Below, piece by piece: positions 1,200 to 31,200 of a DNA stretch of 32,000 bases. The position numbers and the translations under genes are program-made. The DNA comes from Microcystis aeruginosa NIES-2549 (lineage in GTDB: Bacteria; Cyanobacteriota; Cyanobacteriia; Cyanobacteriales; Microcystaceae), in contig NZ_CP011304.1 of assembly GCF_000981785.2 (NCBI RefSeq), forward strand, positions 210,001 to 242,000. Direction: 5' to 3'. Under the pieces are notes generated by a model. It saw only the letters and a list, made by a program, of their open reading frames with translations, was not told where the DNA came from and did no database searches. How positions within the stretch are numbered: the first letter of the stretch is position 1; each line of letters begins with the position of its first letter.

Positions 1200-1234
1200 T
1201 TATTACTTTAGCTAGATTAATATTTGGCTCTCCC

Positions 1235-1361
1235 AGGTTTGGTGGGTAAAATGTATTCTAAGATACAGTCTTGCGGGCGAGGGAGTGGAACGAACCACTC
1301 CAGACAGAAAGGACACAAAGATTGATCGCTACTATATAAGTTAAACTTATGACACAAAGAA
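1235..1361 (+). repeat. Dispersed ~127-bp repeat, copy A (partner at 17144..17268)
   Basis: Shares AGGTTTGGTGGGTAAAATGTATTCTAAGATACA ... GCGAGGGAGTGGAA.GAACCAC ... ACACAAAGATTGATCG ... TAAGTTAAACTTAT with copy B in the same orientation. Both copies lie just 3' of a plus-strand gene. Confidence 0.75.
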
Positions 1362-17124: not shown

Positions 17125-17143
17125 TAAGCTGTTCGGATCTCTT

Positions 17144-17268
17144 AGGTTTGGTGGGTAAAATGTATTCTAAGATACATTCCTCCTAGCGAGGGAGTGGAAG
17201 GAACCACAAAGACACAAAGAACACAAAGATTGATCGATCATAGAGTAAGTTAAACTTATCACACAGAA
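17144..17268 (+). repeat. Dispersed ~127-bp repeat, copy B (partner at 1235..1361)
   Basis: See copy A. Copy B begins 20 nt after the stop of the CBS gene and contains a CACAAAGA x3 micro-repeat. Confidence 0.75.
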
Positions 17269-17592: not shown

Positions 17593-19980
17593 ATGCTAGA
17601 CCAAATGATGAAGATGTTGGAAGGGCAACAAATAGGCCCCTATCGTCTTAATAAGTTTCTCGGTGCCGGTGGTTTTGGGGGTGTATTTCATGCTAGTGAA
17701 ATGGTCAGAAATACATCGGTCCAAGAAGTTGCTATTAAAGTTATTCCCGAAAGTAGCGATGATAAATTAATTGAATTAACAAATGCCAGAAAGTTAGAAC
17801 ATTCTAATTTAATTAAGGCTTATTCAGTGGGGGAATTTACTTTTCTCAATACGGAGATGCTTTATTTAGTGATGGAATTGGCACAGGGTAGCCTAGAAAA
17901 TCACATCGCTAAAGGCGGTTTGTCAGCGGATGAGATTAAAAATATTACTGCTCAAGTCGCCCAAGGTTTAAATTATCTTCATGGACAAAATAAAGTCCAT
18001 CGAGATTTAAAACCGGGTAATATCCTCAAGGTTAATCAACAATACAAGTTAGCAGATTTTGGCTTAATTAGAACCTTAAATAACAAAAGTCACACTCAAA
18101 CAGTCCACAATAGCGGTACAATTATTTATATGCCTCCCGAAGCCTTTAGGGGGGATATTTCCTCAGCCTGGGATCTGTGGTCATTGGGTATTATGTTAAT
18201 CGAAATGACCACTAATCAACTTCCCTATAAGTTTAATAATGATATTCACCAGTTAATGGCGAAGGTGATGAATTGTGAGCTACAAATCCCTAGTTTACCG
18301 AAAGAGTTTAAACAGATTATTGAAGGGTGTTTGCAAAAAGATAGAAAACAAAGATGGACAGCACAACAGGTTTTAAATGCCTTACAACCTCTGGGATGGA
18401 CTTCTCCCCCGTCACCTCCACCAGCACCGGCAGCAGTCAAAAAGCCTGTTTCACCAATACCCCTAATTGCTTCACCTACTCCATTTACCGAAAAACTACC
18501 CAACGGAGTAACACTAGAGATGGTGAGCTTACCAGCAGGTAAATTTCTCATGGGATCTCCTGACAGTGATTCTGATGCTTGGGATTCTGAAAAGCCTCCA
18601 CACCAAGTTAAAGTCAACAGTTTTGCGATTGGGAAATATCCAGTGACTCAGGCACAATATGAAGCGGTAATGGGAACCAATCCCTCTCGGTTTAAAAACA
18701 ATCCGCAAAATCCGGTAGAAAGGGTTAGTTGGAACAATGCTCAAGCTTTTTGTCAAAAATTGAGTCAAATAACAGGGAAAACCTATCGCCTACCGACGGA
18801 AGCGGAATGGGAATATGCTTGTCGTGCGGGGACCACTACTCGCTATTATTTCGGTGATGATGCTAGTCAGTTAGGAGATTACGCTTGGTATAGCGCAAAT
18901 TCTCAGAGTAAAACTCATCCTGTGGGACAGAAAAAACCCAATGCTTGGGGACTGTATGACATGATTGGCAATGTTTGGGAGTGGTGCGAAGACGATTGGC
19001 ACGATAACTATATCGGAGCGCCAAAGGATGGATCGGCGTGGCTTATCAAGAACGATAATCGTTCTCAGTCTCTTAAGTGTCTGCGGGGCGGTTCTTGGTA
19101 CGACTACCCTAATCTCTGTCGTTCTGCCAACCGCAGCGGGGGCAACCCCCTCGGCGACTACATCAACTACGGTTTTCGGGTAGTGTGCGGTGCTGGGGGG
19201 AAAAGTATCGCTACTGTAACATCTACACCCCTACCTAAAGAATCGCCAACTCCACTGACAAACTTTACCGAAAAACTACCCAACGGAGTAACACTAGAGA
19301 TGGTGAGCTTACCAGCAGGTAAATTTCTCATGGGATCTCCTGACAGTGATTCTGATGCTTGGGATTCTGAAAAGCCTCCACACCAAGTTAAAGTCAACAG
19401 TTTTGCGATTGGGAAATATCCAGTGACTCAGGCACAATATGAAGCGGTAATGGGAACCAATCCCTCTCGGTTTAAAAACAATCCGCAAAATCCGGTAGAA
19501 AGGGTTAGTTGGAACAATGCTCAAGCTTTTTGTCAAAAATTGAGTCAAATAACAGGGAAAACCTATCGCCTACCGACGGAAGCGGAATGGGAATATGCTT
19601 GTCGTGCGGGGACCACTACTCGCTATTATTTCGGTGATGATGCTAATCAGTTAGGAGATTACGCTTGGTATAAAGGAAATTCTCGGTATAAGACTCATCC
19701 TGTTGGTGAGAAAAAGCCCAATGCTTGGGGACTCTATGACATGAGCGGCAATGTTTTCGAGTGGTGCGAGGACGATTGGCATAATAGCTATGAGAATGCG
19801 CCAAAGGATGGCAGTGCTTGGCTGACAAATGATACTGATTATCAAATAGTGCGGGGCGGTTCTTGGTCTTTTAATCCCAATGACTGCCGTTCCGCTTACC
19901 GCAGCAGTAACGACCGCCGCGACTACATCGACCTCACCATCGGTTTTCGGGTGGTGTGCGGTGCTGGGAGGACTCTGTAA
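17593..19980 (+). CDS. Hanks-type Ser/Thr protein kinase fused to two tandem FGE-sulfatase (SUMF1/C-type-lectin-fold) domains
   Basis: ATG at 17593 is preceded by AGGAG. Kinase motifs: GAGGFGGVF, AIKVI, HRDLKPGNIL, DFGL. A Pro-rich linker follows, then two units, each with ..GSPDSD..EKPPHQV.., RLPTEAEWEYACRAG, AWGLYDM.GNV.EWCEDDW, RGGSW...GFRVVCGAG. Confidence 0.9.
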   Translation: MLDQMMKMLEGQQIGPYRLNKFLGAGGFGGVFHASEMVRNTSVQEVAIKVIPESSDDKLIELTNARKLEHSNLIKAYSVGEFTFLNTEMLYLVMELAQGSLENHIAKGGLSADEIKNITAQVAQGLNYLHGQNKVHRDLKPGNILKVNQQYKLADFGLIRTLNNKSHTQTVHNSGTIIYMPPEAFRGDISSAWDLWSLGIMLIEMTTNQLPYKFNNDIHQLMAKVMNCELQIPSLPKEFKQIIEGCLQKDRKQRWTAQQVLNALQPLGWTSPPSPPPAPAAVKKPVSPIPLIASPTPFTEKLPNGVTLEMVSLPAGKFLMGSPDSDSDAWDSEKPPHQVKVNSFAIGKYPVTQAQYEAVMGTNPSRFKNNPQNPVERVSWNNAQAFCQKLSQITGKTYRLPTEAEWEYACRAGTTTRYYFGDDASQLGDYAWYSANSQSKTHPVGQKKPNAWGLYDMIGNVWEWCEDDWHDNYIGAPKDGSAWLIKNDNRSQSLKCLRGGSWYDYPNLCRSANRSGGNPLGDYINYGFRVVCGAGGKSIATVTSTPLPKESPTPLTNFTEKLPNGVTLEMVSLPAGKFLMGSPDSDSDAWDSEKPPHQVKVNSFAIGKYPVTQAQYEAVMGTNPSRFKNNPQNPVERVSWNNAQAFCQKLSQITGKTYRLPTEAEWEYACRAGTTTRYYFGDDANQLGDYAWYKGNSRYKTHPVGEKKPNAWGLYDMSGNVFEWCEDDWHNSYENAPKDGSAWLTNDTDYQIVRGGSWSFNPNDCRSAYRSSNDRRDYIDLTIGFRVVCGAGRTL
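18484..18892 (+). repeat. Intragenic direct repeat, unit 1 (5' part of FGE domain 1)
   Basis: Identical to 19264..19672 except for one base (18866 G versus 19646 A). The offset is exactly 780 nt (260 codons). Confidence 0.95.
19264..19672 (+). repeat. Intragenic direct repeat, unit 2 (5' part of FGE domain 2)
   Basis: See unit 1. The duplicated antisense ORFs in the supplied track (18529..18768 = 19309..19548) are a by-product of this repeat. Confidence 0.95.
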
Positions 19981-20022
19981 CCCTTTTTCTCTTTTTTACC
20001 CTTTTTCTCTTTTTCTCTTTTT

Positions 20023-20052
20023 CCCGCCGCTAGGCGGGTCGATTTTTTTTTT
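20023..20052 (+). terminator. Intrinsic terminator after the kinase-FGE gene
   Basis: CCCGCC GCTA GGCGGG (6-bp GC stem, 4-nt loop), then TCGA and a T10 run. It is preceded by a ~45-nt polypyrimidine tract with direct repeats (CCCTTTTTCTCTTTT x2). Confidence 0.7.
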
Positions 20053-20278
20053 GAGATTTTTAATGGCTTCCATTACTGTTAATATCTCAGATGAACAGTT
20101 GAAGACTTAATTAGGGTTTGCATAGAAGATTCGATTTTCAATTTCTGTCGATGGCGTTTGGAACAAGGGGTTAAGGCTTGTGTTCGATGCCATCAAATCA
20201 CTACAGATATGCCAATAATCCCAGATGATAGAGAATAGATATTTCCGAAAATTAAATATGCGTAACCTGAAACACTTG

Positions 20279-20488
20279 GTAGGGACAATTCATGAATTGT
20301 CCCTACATTTTTGGAGTATAAATCATGAATTGTCCCTACATTTTTGGAGTATAAATCATGAATTGTCCCTACATTTTTGGAGTATAAATCATGAATTGTC
20401 CCTACATTTTTGGAGTATAAATCATGAATTGTCCCTACATTTTCGGAGTACAATTCATAAATTGTTCCTACGTTTTCGGAGATGTCTA
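20279..20488. repeat. 28-nt perfect palindrome followed by a 33-bp tandem direct repeat array (4 perfect + 2 degenerate units)
   Basis: Palindrome GTAGGGACAATTCA|TGAATTGTCCCTAC at 20279..20306. Unit CATGAATTGTCCCTACATTTTTGGAGTATAAAT at 20291, 20324, 20357 and 20390 (identical); 20423 has 3 changes; 20456 is degenerate. There are no spacers. Confidence 0.95.
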
Positions 20489-20551
20489 ATGATGATACAG
20501 CTAGTCTCTCTGCTATAGTACAAAAGTAGTTTAGCATGATACCCCACTCAA

Positions 20552-25404: not shown

Positions 25405-26574
25405 ATGAAACTTCCTACAGGGTTACGGCGAACTATTACCCACGCTTTGGCAACTTTTCTGGGAGTTATGCTCGGTTTTAGCAGTTTAGCGGCGGTAAAT
25501 GCTCAAAATCTGCCCAGCACTGCCGCCGATCTGGTCAGAATCCCCCCGGAGATGACGGCGGAAAGTTTTGTCGCTAAGGCAGTGGCCCGCACGGGTGCGG
25601 CAGTGGTGCGAATTGACACCGAAGCGATCATTACTCGTCCCAATAGCCCCTTTTTTGATGATCCTTTTTTTCAGGAGTTTTTTGGGGAACAGTTTCGTGT
25701 TCCCACCCAGCAGCGAGTGGCGGGCCAGGGATCGGGTTTTATTATCGATGGCAGTGGTTTAATCTTAACTAATGCCCATGTGGTCGATAATGCCGATAAG
25801 GTAACGGTAACTTTAAAAGATGGTCGTAGCTTCAAGGGAGAAGTACGCGGTACTGATGAGATCACTGATTTAGCCGTAGTCAAAATTAATCCCCAAGGGG
25901 AAAATTTACCTGTAGCCGTCCTGGGCAATTCCTCATCCATACAAGTGGGGGACTGGGCGATCGCTGTAGGCAATCCCGTCGGTCTAGATAATACGGTAAC
26001 TTTAGGAATTATTAGCACGATCGGGCGCTCGGCGGCTAAGGCGGGTATTCCCGATAAACGCATTGATTTTATCCAAACTGATGCCGCTATTAACCCGGGT
26101 AATTCCGGCGGTCCTTTACTCAACGCCCAAGGGGAAGTCATCGGCATCAATACGGCGATTCGTGCTGATGCCATGGGCATCGGTTTTGCCATTCCCATCG
26201 ACCGGGCCAAGCAGTTACAAGCGACCCTAGAATCAGGTCAAAAGGTGGCCCATCCCTATATCGGTGTGCAGATGATTAATCTAACTCCCGATTTAGCCCG
26301 GGCTAATAATCAAAACCCCAATTCTGCCATGATCGTGCCGGAAGTGTCGGGAATTTTGGTGGTGAAAGTTCTACCCAATACCCCCGCCGAAAAAGCCGGG
26401 ATCCGTCGCGGGGATGTGATTGTCAAAGCTAATAATCAACCGGTTAGCGATGGCGCTCAGTTACAGGAAATGGTGGAAAAAACTGGGATCGGTCAATCTT
26501 TACCCCTAAGAATCAGAAGGGGTGAAAGGGCGCTCGATCTCACCGTAATCACCGCCCAAATGTCAAATCAGTAA
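25405..26574 (+). CDS. HtrA/DegP-family serine protease with one PDZ domain
   Basis: Signal/anchor N-terminus. Catalytic triad contexts TNAHVV, DLAVVKI, GNSGGPLLN. PDZ region (..VLPNTPAEKAGIRRGDVIVKANNQPV..). Confidence 0.93.
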   Translation: MKLPTGLRRTITHALATFLGVMLGFSSLAAVNAQNLPSTAADLVRIPPEMTAESFVAKAVARTGAAVVRIDTEAIITRPNSPFFDDPFFQEFFGEQFRVPTQQRVAGQGSGFIIDGSGLILTNAHVVDNADKVTVTLKDGRSFKGEVRGTDEITDLAVVKINPQGENLPVAVLGNSSSIQVGDWAIAVGNPVGLDNTVTLGIISTIGRSAAKAGIPDKRIDFIQTDAAINPGNSGGPLLNAQGEVIGINTAIRADAMGIGFAIPIDRAKQLQATLESGQKVAHPYIGVQMINLTPDLARANNQNPNSAMIVPEVSGILVVKVLPNTPAEKAGIRRGDVIVKANNQPVSDGAQLQEMVEKTGIGQSLPLRIRRGERALDLTVITAQMSNQ

Positions 26575-26594
26575 TCAGTTATCAGTTATCAGAT
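26567..26594 (+). repeat. Heptamer array ATCAGTW x4 overlapping the htrA stop codon
   Basis: ATCAGTA ATCAGTT ATCAGTT ATCAGAT. This is the same heptamer, reverse-complemented, as the AACTGAT array at 31138..31186. Confidence 0.85.
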
Positions 26595-26607
26595 GTAAGT
26601 TTTCAGT

Positions 26608-26714
26608 TTAACGCCAGTTCGGTTTAAGGGAATTTTGCCATAGCTTCCACGAAAGAATAGGAGTTTCAGGCTACGGTAGCATCAGGGTTTTAGCTTATCC
26701 CGAACTGAGGTTAA
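26608..26714. repeat. 107-bp segment bounded by 16-nt imperfect inverted repeats (MITE-like or structured RNA)
   Basis: TTAACGCCAGTTCGGT (26608..26623) versus the reverse complement of 26699..26714, TTAACCTCAGTTCGGG (13/16 matching). No ORF is present. Confidence 0.4.
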
Positions 26715-26849: not shown

Positions 26850-27060
26850 ACTCAGAAAGCGATTATACTCATTGACATCCTCACCGCCGTAAACGGACGG
26901 TGATTCCCAAACCTCACGATTTAGGCTTCTGCTTCTTTTCCGAAGGATTTTTCGCACCTGCCTTAACAGATTTACTCTGTTCTGGTCATCAGGTCGCTCT
27001 ACAGACTGACACCGCAAGCCCTGCGGCCAAAATGTTTTTACTGGCGTTAATATCTCGGTC
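26850..27060 (-). ncRNA. Putative omega/right-end RNA of the tnpB element
   Basis: By analogy with characterised TnpB systems, the guide RNA scaffold overlaps the tnpB 3' end and runs to the IS right end. A conserved-looking hairpin lies at 26882..26902. The boundaries are not determinable by eye. Confidence 0.35.
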
Positions 27061-28101
27061 ATGGTGAGTCCCACAGTCTGGACAGTCCCATTCTCGAACA
27101 TTTAACGGCATTTTCTCAGCAATATACCCGCAATTACTACACCTTTTAGAGCTAGGAAACCATCTATCTATTTCGATGTAATTTCTCCCATACCAACGGC
27201 ATTTATAGGCTAATTGTCTAGTGATTTCACCCCAGCTTACATCAGATATTGCCTGAGATAACTTGGGGTTTTTGACCATATTCTTGACGGCTAAATTCTC
27301 AACCACAATCGTTTGGTTTTCACGAACTAATTGAGTCGTTAGCTTATGTAAATGGTCTTTTCTGTTATCAGTAATTTGAGCGTGAATTCTGGCTACTTTG
27401 ATTCTTGCTTTTTCTCGATTCTTTGAGCCTTTCTGTTTTCGAGAAAGGCTTTTTTGTGCCTTTCGCAGTCTCCGATAATGCTTTTTAAAATGCTTGGGAT
27501 TAGATACTTTATCGCCGTCGCTGGTAATTACTAGGCTACTAATTCCTAAGTCAATTCCAATGGCTTTATCTGTTACTGGTAATGGCTTAATTGTTGGGTC
27601 ATCAAATCTAATTGAAATATGCCAACGTCCAGAAGGATGTAATCTGACTGTTACTGTACTTGGTTCACAGCTTTCTGGTATTTGTCTTGACCATCGAATA
27701 GGTAAAGGTTCTGTGCATTTGGCTAAATAGATTTGTCTGTCTTTAAATTTAAAAGCAGATTTGGTAAATTCGGCACTTCCTCCCTGATGTTTTTTCTTAA
27801 AGTTAGGATACTTAGTACGACCAGCCAAGAAATTAGTAAAAGCTGTTTGTAGGTGTCTTAACCCTTGTTGTAAGGGTACACAGCTTACCTCATTGAGAAA
27901 GTCTAATTCTTCTTGCTTTTTCCACTCGGTTAGCATTGAAGAAGTTTGAACGTAGCCTACTCTTTCTTGTCTTTCGTACCATGCTTGTGTTCGTTCGTGG
28001 AGAGCTTTGTTGTAAACTAATCTTACACAGCCCAAAGTGCGTCGCAATAGCGACTCTTGTTCGGGTGTGGGGTAAAATCGAAACGAATAGGCTTTTTCCA
28101 T
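26989..28101 (-). CDS. tnpB: TnpB (RNA-guided RuvC-like nuclease, OrfB_IS605 with zinc ribbon)
   Basis: 370 aa. N-terminus MEKAYSFRFYPTPEQESLLRRTLGCVRLVYNKAL. RuvC residues in AIGIDLGI (D), IVVENLAVKNM (E), HHDRDINASKNI (D). Zinc ribbon CSNCG...CPDCG. The ORF ends at tandem TGA TGA, and the same frame is then open for 25 more codons (PEQSKSVKAGAKNPSEKKQKPKS). Confidence 0.9.
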   Translation of the reverse strand: MEKAYSFRFYPTPEQESLLRRTLGCVRLVYNKALHERTQAWYERQERVGYVQTSSMLTEWKKQEELDFLNEVSCVPLQQGLRHLQTAFTNFLAGRTKYPNFKKKHQGGSAEFTKSAFKFKDRQIYLAKCTEPLPIRWSRQIPESCEPSTVTVRLHPSGRWHISIRFDDPTIKPLPVTDKAIGIDLGISSLVITSDGDKVSNPKHFKKHYRRLRKAQKSLSRKQKGSKNREKARIKVARIHAQITDNRKDHLHKLTTQLVRENQTIVVENLAVKNMVKNPKLSQAISDVSWGEITRQLAYKCRWYGRNYIEIDRWFPSSKRCSNCGYIAEKMPLNVREWDCPDCGTHHDRDINASKNILAAGLAVSVCRAT

Positions 28102-31094: not shown

Positions 31095-31200
31095 GTGGGG
31101 AAGTGGGGAAGTAGGGAAGTTTTTTCAGTAAACAGTGAACTGATAACTGATAACTGATAACTGATAACTGATAACTGATAACTGAATTCAGCAGACCCTA
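31095..31200. repeat. Octamer array (GTGGGGAA x3), heptamer array (AACTGAT x6.5) and a solo MITE-type terminus
   Basis: GTGGGGAA GTGGGGAA GTAGGGAA at 31095..31118. AACTGAT x6 plus a partial unit at 31138..31186. TTCAGCAGACCCTA at 31187..31200 is the same terminus as the MITE-like element at 13171..13387. Confidence 0.9.

What the first reader, a model, noticed from the sequence alone, without database searches (positions are those of the whole stretch)
19081..19980. Each FGE/C-type-lectin domain ends in a GC-rich, NNC-codon-rich tail resembling a DGR variable region, with no RT/TR in the window
The last ~120 nt of each unit are compositionally different from the rest of the gene. By my count, 75/120 G+C in 19081..19200 and 72/120 in 19851..19970, versus 54/120 in 18481..18600. 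Nucleotide blocks are shared between the two tails (CGGGGCGGTTCTTGG; CCGCAGC; GACTACATC; GGTTTTCGGGT.GTGTGCGGTGCTGGG). Between these blocks sit clusters of unrelated codons, mostly of NNC type: TAC GAC TAC / CTC / AAC / GGC AAC CCC CTC GGC GAC TAC ATC AAC TAC in one tail, and GAC / TAC / AAC GAC CGC CGC GAC TAC ATC GAC CTC ACC ATC in the other. At protein level this is RGGSW[xxx]PN[x]CRSA[x]R[x..x]GFRVVCGAG. These are the positions that are Asn (AAC) in template repeats of diversity-generating retroelements, which target CLec/FGE-fold C-termini. Kinase-CLec proteins are known DGR targets in cyanobacteria. A GC hairpin with a 4-nt loop (20023..20038) lies about 45 nt after the stop. Caveats: three invariant codons differ by T/C synonymous changes between the tails (tgt/tgc, tct/tcc, gcc/gct). 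That argues against both tails having been recently rewritten from one template. No reverse transcriptase or A-rich template repeat is in these 32 kb, so this could be a remote (trans) target or a fossil one.
Basis: partly seen in the sequence, partly recalled or inferred. Interest (0 to 1): 0.7.

Follow-up and report, generated by a model that had tools for sequence, protein, structure and literature searches.

The report
Known remote DGR target in Microcystis
The two GC-rich tails belong to a Microcystis aeruginosa kinase-lectin gene already published as a remote target of a diversity-generating retroelement; the first tail carries the adenine-specific signature of the template repeat found beside that genome's reverse transcriptase, and the second tail does not.

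Summary
GC counts, shared blocks, T/C synonymous differences, the hairpin and the absence of RT, Avd or TR in the window were all reproduced.

The gene (17593..19980) encodes a protein 100% identical to AKE62606.1 of Microcystis aeruginosa NIES-2549. Vallota-Eastman et al. 2020 already list it as a remote variable protein of that strain's DGR (Avd AKE65308.1, RT AKE65309.1).

I recovered the template repeat (TR-B) from contigs that encode exactly that RT.
- **Tail 1** (19087..19181): 15 differences from TR-B at 31 TR adenines and 1 at 64 other bases (p=3.5e-8). It carries TR-B's TGT/TCT/GCC codons. In 21 unique homologous tails, variation falls almost only on TR codons with adenine.
- **Tail 2** (19849..19980): not cognate to TR-B or to any TR I fetched. 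Its family still shows a DGR-type pattern, so it is an orphan of another or older template.

Tail 1 is internal and lacks the 3' module found after every terminal VR (CT-rich tract plus a CCCGCC-N4-GGCGGG hairpin). Tail 2 has that module.

Both tails recur in another strain in swapped order, tail 1's variable region nucleotide-identical and tail 2's differing at one base. This points to recombination and no recent rewriting.

The parts
17593..19980 (+). Gene for a 795-aa Ser/Thr kinase with two FGE-sulfatase (C-type-lectin-fold) domains. It is identical to AKE62606.1 / AOC50994.1 of Microcystis aeruginosa NIES-2549 / NIES-2481.
   Evidence: Pfam: Pkinase E=1.3e-52 and FGE-sulfatase E=1.6e-118 with two stretches. 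BLASTP gives 795/795 identity to P0257.
17641..18378 (+). Hanks-type protein kinase domain (aa 17-262).
   Evidence: Pfam PF00069 covers residues 17-262.
18484..18865 (+). 5' half of FGE unit 1, 100% identical to 19264..19645.
19264..19645 (+). 5' half of FGE unit 2, 100% identical to 18484..18865. This is the signature of recent unequal recombination or gene conversion.
19081..19181 (+). Tail 1 is an internal variable region homologous to TR-B. The variable codons lie in 19099..19170. In the core 19087..19181 there are 15 mismatches at 31 TR adenines and 1 (19150, G to C) at 64 other bases.
   Evidence: Fisher p = 3.5e-8.
19182..19263 (+). 3' end of unit 1 plus the inter-domain linker (…VVCGAGGKSIATVTSTPLPKESPTPLTN). 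It does not match the 3' end of TR-B (GTTGCGTGTGTCTCCCCAG…) and has neither a CT-rich tract nor a hairpin.
19849..19980 (+). Tail 2 is the C-terminal, VR-like region of the 'RR' type. The variable codons lie in 19867..19941, the protein ends GFRVVCGAGRTL, and the stop codon is at 19978..19980. It is not cognate to TR-B or to any TR I fetched.
19981..20022 (+). CT-rich tract (CCCTTTTT-like repeats). A similar tract follows terminal VRs at unlinked loci, including the DGR's own cis target.
20023..20052 (+). Hairpin CCCGCC-GCTA-GGCGGG followed by TCGATTTTTTTTTT. It is terminator-like, and the same stem follows terminal VRs in L059, L060, L062, L070/L071 and L067.

Best explanation
The gene is a remote target of the diversity-generating retroelement of Microcystis aeruginosa NIES-2549. 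That element (FGE target, Avd, RT, TR) lies elsewhere on the same chromosome.

**General mechanism (established for DGRs, inferred here).** The TR is transcribed. The Avd-RT complex copies it into cDNA and misincorporates opposite template adenines. The cDNA then replaces the homologous variable region at the end of a C-type-lectin-fold domain. This recodes AAC/AAT codons and so changes the ligand-binding surface of the sensor domain attached to the kinase.

**Tail 1** was written this way from TR-B or a near-identical earlier version of it.

**Tail 2** was written from a different, unidentified template of the 'RR' type. In this genome it is an orphan.

**How the present arrangement arose.** Recombination between tandem FGE units produced it. 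Tail 1 was probably diversified while it was the terminal unit, with the CT-rich tract and hairpin behind it, and was then moved inside. Neither tail shows evidence of recent rewriting.
For: **Shown**
- The protein is identical to AKE62606.1, which PMC7517822 lists as a remote variable protein of the NIES-2549 DGR.
- RT AKE65309.1 (P0458) and Avd AKE65308.1 / WP_046662611.1 are recorded on a contig of the same length, 4,294,213 bp.
- Avd passes NCBIfam NF033474 with 131.7 bits against a cutoff of 80.
- The RT's best solved relative is the 328-aa RT of entry 8ub7 (E=3e-48), against 3e-20 for the best group II intron-type RT. I identify 8ub7 from memory as the Bordetella phage DGR RT. The RT carries the motifs MGNLTSQ and YVDD.
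- The TR is identical in all 12 contigs of this cassette, four of which encode exactly P0458.
- Tail 1 against TR-B over 95 nt: 15 of 31 adenines changed and 1 of 64 other bases changed, p=3.5e-8. The next best TR has 13 non-A mismatches.
- In 21 unique tail-1-type tails from Microcystis, every codon without adenine at position 1-2 is invariant except two rare changes (Cys to Arg in 4 tails, Phe to Val in 1). Every codon with adenine has 1.8-3.0 bits of entropy. The AGG codon yields R, G and W in 20 of 21 tails, with one S.
- The cis target's VR in L071 differs from TR-B only at adenines.
- In the tail-2 family (35 unique tails), the invariant positions are RGGSW, P, CRSA, RR and GFRV. One position shows only D/V/G/A, the set expected from GAC. 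Only 3 of 560 variable residues are K/E/Q/M/W.
- In L084, tail 1's variable region is nucleotide-identical and tail 2's differs at one base, and the two are in swapped order at another locus.

**Inferred**
- That retrohoming acted in trans on this locus.
- The order of events (diversification first, then shuffling).
Against: - I did not read the TR of NIES-2549 from the genome record itself. I inferred it from short contigs that encode the identical RT protein.
- Past GGTTTTCGGGT, neither tail matches the 3' end of TR-B. The cis target does match it through GTCTCCCCAG. How a TR-B copy was joined to a GFRVVCGAG end is therefore unexplained.
- Tail 1 has one internal non-adenine mismatch (19150).
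- Tail 2 has no template, so its DGR origin rests on family-level patterns only.
- The published 'remote VP' label used a lax criterion (>=50% nucleotide identity to the VR), so it adds little independent weight.
Confidence: 0.78

Rival explanations
1. Both tails are live targets today: the intact NIES-2549 DGR keeps rewriting them in trans.
For: - The RT is intact (A9 allele, 352 aa), and Avd and TR are present.
- Tail 2 has the conserved CT-rich tract and hairpin that follows every terminal VR, including the cis target.
- Within 90%-identity clusters of homologues, many different tails coexist in metagenomes, for example the cluster of P0016.
Against: - Tail 2 has at least 10 non-adenine mismatches and a 3-nt indel against TR-B.
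- Tail 1 is internal and lacks the 3' module.
- The protein is identical in NIES-2549 and NIES-2481.
- Both tails recur in L084, tail 1's variable region nucleotide-identical and tail 2's differing at one base. The kinase domain of that protein differs at several residues.
- One tail-1-type tail body (NSYKAPDY…) is shared by five listed proteins, named from NIES-3807, FACHB-1344, PCC 9806 and others.
Confidence: 0.1
2. Tail 2 is served by a second template repeat or a second DGR in the same genome that I could not see.
For: - The tail-2 family shows a clean DGR-type pattern.
- Other TR types exist in related DNA: L066/L067/L069 with the same 25-codon layout, and L005.
Against: - PMC7517822 lists one RT for NIES-2549.
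- L070 extends about 3 kb past TR-B without a second TR.
- Tail-2-type alleles differ at positions that a shared template would keep fixed (CCC/CCA/CCG, TCC/TCT, AGT/AGC). This points to ordinary drift.
- Two pattern scans for a matching TR found none: one of metagenome contigs and one of viral contigs.
Confidence: 0.1
3. No retroelement was involved. The tails are an ordinary fast-evolving loop shaped by selection, codon bias and recombination among paralogues.
For: Paralogues clearly recombine. Tail bodies and ends are shuffled: P0013 and P0014 share one body with different ends, and L084 has swapped units.
Against: - Mismatches to a real TR sitting next to an Avd-RT pair are adenine-specific (p=3.5e-8).
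- Third codon positions are conserved while positions 1-2 vary.
- The AGG codon gives R/G/W in 20 of 21 tails, and the GAC codon of the tail-2 family gives only D/G/V/A.
Confidence: 0.02

Closest known systems
Remote variable proteins (Ser/Thr kinase + C-type-lectin/FGE domain) of cyanobacterial DGRs, Vallota-Eastman et al. 2020, BMC Genomics 21:664 (PMC7517822)
   Same: It is the same object. AKE62606.1 of M. aeruginosa NIES-2549 is listed there as a remote VP of the DGR with RT AKE65309.1 and VP AKE65307.1. The architecture is also the same: an N-terminal STK and a C-terminal CLec domain carrying the VR.
   Different: - The paper assigned remote VPs by >=50% nucleotide identity to the VR, not by adenine-specific mismatches.
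- Here only the first, internal tail passes the adenine test against the TR.
- The C-terminal tail does not pass it.
- The two-domain, two-tail structure was not found in the passages of the paper and supplements that I read.
Bordetella phage BPP-1 DGR (Mtd, TR, bRT, Avd, IMH and downstream hairpin)
   Same: - The RT's best solved relative is the 328-aa RT of entry 8ub7 (E=3e-48), which I identify from memory as bRT.
- Avd is present.
- TR-to-VR differences fall at adenines.
- The VR sits at the end of a C-type-lectin-fold domain.
- A GC stem with a 4-nt loop lies downstream of the terminal VR. That such a hairpin aids target recognition in BPP-1 is my own knowledge (Guo et al. 2011, PLoS Genet), not tested here.
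   Different: - The element is chromosomal in a cyanobacterium, with several unlinked targets.
- The hairpin lies 42 nt past the stop codon, behind a CT-rich tract, and doubles as a terminator-like site.
- The 3' ends of both window tails differ from the TR's 3' end right after GGTTTTCGGGT.
FGE-type (formylglycine-generating-enzyme subfamily) C-type-lectin-fold DGR variable proteins such as Treponema denticola TvpA (own knowledge, Le Coq and Ghosh 2011)
   Same: Both have the Pfam FGE-sulfatase fold, with the variable residues in the last ~40 residues before a conserved GFR motif.
   Different: Here the fold is fused to a cytoplasmic-type kinase and is duplicated in tandem.

Membership tests
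DGR variable region (tail 1, 19081..19181) | Paired with a template repeat, with differences confined to template adenines. | tested here: met
   Against TR-B, 15 of 31 adenines and 1 of 64 other bases differ in 19087..19181, p=3.5e-8. The next best TR has 13 non-A mismatches.
DGR variable region (tail 1, 19081..19181) | Lies at the 3' end of the target ORF, followed by an IMH-like 3' homology and a hairpin. | tested here: not met
   Tail 1 ends about 800 nt before the stop codon. After GGTTTTCGGGT it diverges from TR-B, and no CT tract or hairpin follows. In L084 the same tail is terminal.
DGR variable region (tail 2, 19849..19980) | Paired with a template repeat, with differences confined to template adenines. 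| tested here: not met
   Tail 2 has at least 10 non-A mismatches per 100 nt to every TR fetched, and a 3-nt indel against TR-B. The whole NIES-2549 genome could not be scanned.
DGR variable region (tail 2, 19849..19980) | Lies at the 3' end of the ORF in a C-type-lectin/FGE fold, with a downstream hairpin. | tested here: met
   Tail 2 runs into the stop codon at 19978..19980. A CT-rich tract and the CCCGCC-N4-GGCGGG hairpin follow, as after the cis target in L070/L071.
DGR (the element serving this gene) | A DGR-clade reverse transcriptase in the same genome. | tested here: met
   P0458 = AKE65309.1 is recorded on a contig of the same length (4,294,213 bp) as the window protein P0257. Its best PDB relative is the 328-aa RT of entry 8ub7, E=3e-48, and it has the motifs GNLTSQ and YVDD. 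I did not read the genome record itself.
DGR (the element serving this gene) | An Avd accessory protein next to the RT. | tested here: met
   P0473 scores 131.7 bits on NF033474 (cutoff 80). The cassette order in L070-L078 is target, bAvd, RT, TR.
DGR (the element serving this gene) | Ongoing diversification of this locus. | tested here: inconclusive
   At family level the tails are hypervariable only at adenine codons. However, this allele is identical in NIES-2549 and NIES-2481, and in L084 tail 1's variable region is nucleotide-identical and tail 2's differs at one base. No read-level data were available.
FGE-sulfatase / C-type-lectin fold | A Pfam PF03781 match above the gathering score. 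| tested here: met
   395.4 bits against a cutoff of 23.3, in two stretches.

The most novel reading that the evidence does not exclude
Microcystis may use its DGR only episodically, and may store and reshuffle the products.
- **On/off switch.** The RT exists in nature as an intact A9 allele and a frameshifted A8 allele. This could act as a slippage switch.
- **Archive.** Tails written while terminal may be moved inside tandem FGE arrays by unequal recombination. These internal copies, such as tail 1 here, would then be exchanged among paralogues and strains.
- **Address tag.** The CT-rich tract plus the CCCGCC hairpin would mark the one unit that can be rewritten.
Probability: 0.15. Interest if true: 0.55.

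Novelty: already known. Interest (0 to 1): 0.27.

Why it matters
This confirms that a reader working from raw sequence alone can recognise a remote DGR target, which makes it a good positive control for the scan.

Biologically it adds detail to a published case. Of the two tails of one listed 'remote variable protein', only the internal one fits the genome's template by the adenine rule, so lists based on loose VR similarity overstate what a given DGR can rewrite.

The conserved 3' module and the A8/A9 RT alleles are testable leads on how remote targets are chosen and when the element is active. Those leads lie mostly outside this window.

Tried and rejected
- **Genome-collection scan for an AAY-rich TR.** It found 58 loci but only one in Microcystis (L005, W13-11 MAG). 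That is a complete but different DGR whose TR has 14 non-A mismatches to tail 1. P0084 is not on record.\n- **RT search seeded with the L005 RT.** It gave no hit named Microcystis in the table. The link to NIES-2549 came only from cluster listings.\n- **Supplements of PMC7517822.** They hold no TR sequences.\n- **Viral-contig scans.** There is no TR of the tail-2 type and no TR-B. The GFRVVCGAGRTL end occurs in nine IMG/VR contigs, but as VR-like tails rather than templates.\n- **Rfam.** No family matches in the window or in the TR loci.\n- **Idea that tail 2 is a partly rewritten TR-B product.** Rejected: only the last four codons fit, and non-adenine mismatches follow (my reading of the and 58 sequences).
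Full report
**1. The observation**

The region lies in one ORF, 17593..19980 (+), 795 aa. It has a Pkinase domain (residues 17-262) and two FGE-sulfatase domains.

- 75/120 G+C in 19081..19200.
- 72/120 in 19851..19970.
- 54/120 in 18481..18600.
- 43.6% G+C for the whole window.

The shared blocks, the NNC-type codon clusters and the three T/C synonymous differences between the tails are all present.

The hairpin at 20023..20038 has six G-C pairs and a 4-nt loop. It starts 42 nt after the stop codon, is followed by a T run and scores as terminator-like. The 86-nt region folds with z = -3.7 against shuffles.

The window's six-frame translation has no match to the Microcystis DGR RT or Avd, and neither tail has a template-like partner in the window.

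The 5' halves of the two FGE units (18484..18865 and 19264..19645, 382 nt) are 100% identical, and divergence starts well before the tails.

**2. Whose gene it is**

Homologues are almost all from Microcystis. Most have a kinase plus one FGE domain.

A cluster listing shows that the window protein equals P0257, which is AKE62606.1 / AOC50994.1 of M. aeruginosa NIES-2549 / NIES-2481. The match is 795/795 residues.

Vallota-Eastman et al. 2020 (PMC7517822) list a DGR in NIES-2549 with RT AKE65309.1 and variable protein AKE65307.1. They list AKE62606.1 among its remote variable proteins.

The paper's criterion for 'remote' was only >=50% nucleotide identity to the VR. The adenine test was still worth doing.

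**3. Finding the template**

A first pattern scan of species-representative genomes found one Microcystis DGR, L005 from the W13-11 MAG. It has the order target-Avd-RT-TR-target, and its two VRs differ from its TR only at adenines. Its TR is not cognate to the window tails: 14 non-adenine mismatches per 100 nt.

A more specific scan of metagenome contigs found six TRs. One of them, here called TR-B, sits in a cassette of FGE target, bAvd, RT and TR.

The clusters of this cassette's RT and Avd contain three named proteins:
- AKE65309.1 (P0458, 352 aa).
- AKE65308.1.
- WP_046662611.1, named by NCBI as DGR protein Avd.

These proteins are recorded on a 4,294,213-bp contig, the same length as the contig carrying the window protein.

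Four short contigs encode exactly P0458 and carry TR-B just downstream. TR-B is identical in all 12 contigs of this cassette.

Avd passes NCBIfam NF033474 with 131.7 bits against a cutoff of 80.

The RT's best solved relative is the 328-aa RT of entry 8ub7 (E=3e-48), against 3e-20 for the best group II intron-type RT. I identify 8ub7 from memory as the Bordetella phage DGR RT. The RT has the motifs GNLTSQ and YVDD.

I could not read the NIES-2549 record itself. The step 'this TR is in the window's genome' is therefore an inference from the identical RT protein.

**4. The test on tail 1**

TR-B aligns without gaps to 19081..19181. In the core, 19087..19181 (95 nt), there are 15 mismatches at the 31 TR adenines and one (19150, G to C) at the other 64 bases. 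Fisher p = 3.5e-8.

Tail 1 has TR-B's TGT CGT TCT GCC block, the synonymous sites where the two tails differ.

The DGR's own cis target in L071 differs from TR-B only at adenines.

Across 21 unique tails of this type in Microcystis proteins:
- Every codon without adenine at position 1-2 of TR-B is invariant, apart from two rare changes (Cys to Arg in 4 tails, Phe to Val in 1).
- Every adenine-bearing codon has 1.8-3.0 bits of entropy.
- The AGG codon gives R, G and W in 20 of 21 tails, the set reachable by changing its one adenine. One tail has S.

Against the syntenic orthologue in NIES-3807 (L059), mismatches are mostly 0-6 per 60 nt. They reach 14-16 in the bins that cover the tail.

Tail 1 is therefore a product of adenine mutagenesis from TR-B or a close earlier version of it.

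**5. The test on tail 2**

Tail 2 is one codon longer than TR-B. It differs from TR-B at many non-adenine positions, including CCC, TGC, TCC and GCT. Its best score against any fetched TR is 10 non-adenine mismatches per 100 nt.

Its family still looks DGR-written. In 35 unique tails of the 'RR' type:
- The invariant residues are RGGSW, P, CRSA, RR and GFRV.
- One position shows only D/V/G/A, as expected from GAC.
- Only 3 of 560 variable residues are K, E, Q, M or W.

TRs with the same 25-codon layout exist (L066, L067, L069), but they end GFRVVCVFG and are not cognate.

Tail-2-type alleles also differ at positions that a common template would fix (CCC/CCA/CCG, TCC/TCT, AGT/AGC), which suggests ordinary drift since they were written.

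Tail 2 is best called an orphan variable region.

**6. Context and history**

Every terminal VR I could read is followed by a CT-rich tract and the stem CCCGCC-N4-GGCGGG, and in the Microcystis loci also by TCGATTTTTTTTTGAG. This holds for the window's tail 2, L059, L060, L062 and the cis target in L070/L071. L067, a different DGR, has the same stem with a different trailing sequence. The loops differ between loci.

Tail 1 has none of this. It runs into the inter-domain linker.

Neither window tail matches the TR-B 3' end beyond GGTTTTCGGGT, whereas the cis target matches through GTCTCCCCAG. Tail bodies and ends are clearly reassorted among paralogues. For example, P0013 and P0014 share one body with different ends.

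In another strain (L084, at a different locus) both tails recur in swapped order: the tail-1 body is terminal and the tail-2 body is internal. Tail 1's variable region is nucleotide-identical and tail 2's differs at one base. The kinase domain of that protein differs at several residues.

Together with the 382-nt perfect repeat, this points to recent unequal recombination. It argues against recent rewriting of either tail.

The allele is also identical in NIES-2549 and NIES-2481.

No RT or Avd lies near any remote target examined.

**7. Mechanism**

The most likely reading is classical mutagenic retrohoming acting in trans. TR-B RNA is copied by Avd-RT with errors opposite adenines. The cDNA then replaces the end of an FGE/C-type-lectin domain and changes the ligand-binding face of the sensor domain attached to a Ser/Thr kinase.

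- **Shown here:** the adenine-specific TR/VR relation, the RT and Avd on the same chromosome, and the site-restricted population variability.
- **Inferred:** that homing happened at this locus rather than in a donor allele later brought in by recombination, that the hairpin module is the address for homing, and the order of events.

**8. Comparison and verdict**

This is a member of a known kind, and the locus itself is in the literature, so I score it as already known.

The added details are:
- Only the internal tail fits the genome's template.
- The C-terminal tail is an orphan.
- A conserved 3' module follows terminal VRs.
- Tails are shuffled by recombination.
- The RT gene exists as A9 (intact) and A8 (frameshifted) alleles.

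These are modest but testable.

Noticed in passing
L065, L070-L077 versus L078-L081 (RT gene of the TR-B cassette; not in the window): The DGR RT occurs as two alleles that differ by one A in a homopolymer. A9 gives the intact 352-aa RT (= AKE65309.1). A8 gives a frameshift and two ORFs of 163 and 154 aa. Both alleles are seen on many independent contigs (JGI, ENA, Logan, NCBI). This could be a slippage on/off switch.
   Followed up: partly
L005:3443-7965 (minus strand): A second, complete DGR lineage occurs in a Microcystis MAG (W13-11). Its order is target-Avd-RT-TR-target, its ends are GFRVVCRFPRT and all TR/VR differences fall at adenines. Its RT cluster contains many truncated fragments (263, 107 and 64 aa) from other Microcystis MAGs, suggesting frequent decay.
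   Followed up: partly
window 18484-18865 and 19264-19645; L084:3001-5373: A 382-nt perfect direct repeat lies inside the gene. Another strain carries the same two tails in swapped order at a different locus, tail 1's variable region nucleotide-identical and tail 2's differing at one base. FGE units with their tails behave as recombining cassettes.
   Followed up: partly
window 19981-20052; L059, L060, L062, L067, L070, L071 after each terminal VR: A conserved 3' module follows terminal VRs: a CT-rich tract of variable length, then the stem CCCGCC-N4-GGCGGG with varying loops. In the Microcystis loci TCGATTTTTTTTTGAG follows the stem. The module is found at unlinked loci and after the DGR's cis target, and is absent after internal tails.
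   Followed up: partly
window 20254-20514: A tandem array of six copies of a 33-nt unit (AATCATGAATTGTCCCTACATTTTTGGAGTATA) lies just downstream of the gene. A mechanical ORF on the minus strand reads through it.
   Followed up: no
window 1223-1298 and 17132-17207: A 76-nt repeat (87% identical, TTTGGTGGGTAAAATGTATTCTAAGATACA…GAGGGAGTGGAA) occurs twice. Each copy lies just after a gene end, and the second lies about 390 nt upstream of the kinase gene. Rfam gives no match.
   Followed up: no
window 26565-26610 and 31129-31188: Arrays of the heptamer AACTGAT / ATCAGTT in inverted orientation flank a block that contains an IS605-type TnpB gene (26989-28101). Similar heptamer runs follow an FGE gene in L063.
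   Followed up: no
L092-L100 (IMG/VR contigs): Predicted viral contigs carry FGE genes whose tails end GFRVVCGAGRTL/AL, like tail 2. These tails are rich in AGC (Ser) codons and have a different 3' flank. The fetched DNA holds no RT, Avd or TR.
   Followed up: partly
L087, L088 (syntenic sites in other strains): The kinase-FGE gene is absent upstream of the Rieske/PaO gene. A methyltransferase and a BsoBI-type endonuclease gene lie there instead, so the target gene sits in a variable genomic spot.
   Followed up: no
P0007 (three FGE units, Microcystis metagenome protein): Units 2 and 3 share the 5' half of the tail (YGLPNLCRSAYRNFNYRR) and differ only in the 3' half. This would be expected from partial rewriting starting at the 3' end.
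   Followed up: no
L079:1442-1601: An assembly chimera joins TR-B directly to the 3' flank of a VR (…CCCCAGGACTTTAACCCTTTG…). Short-read assemblies break or mis-join at TR/VR repeats, which may explain why all contigs of this cassette are under 5.2 kb.
   Followed up: no
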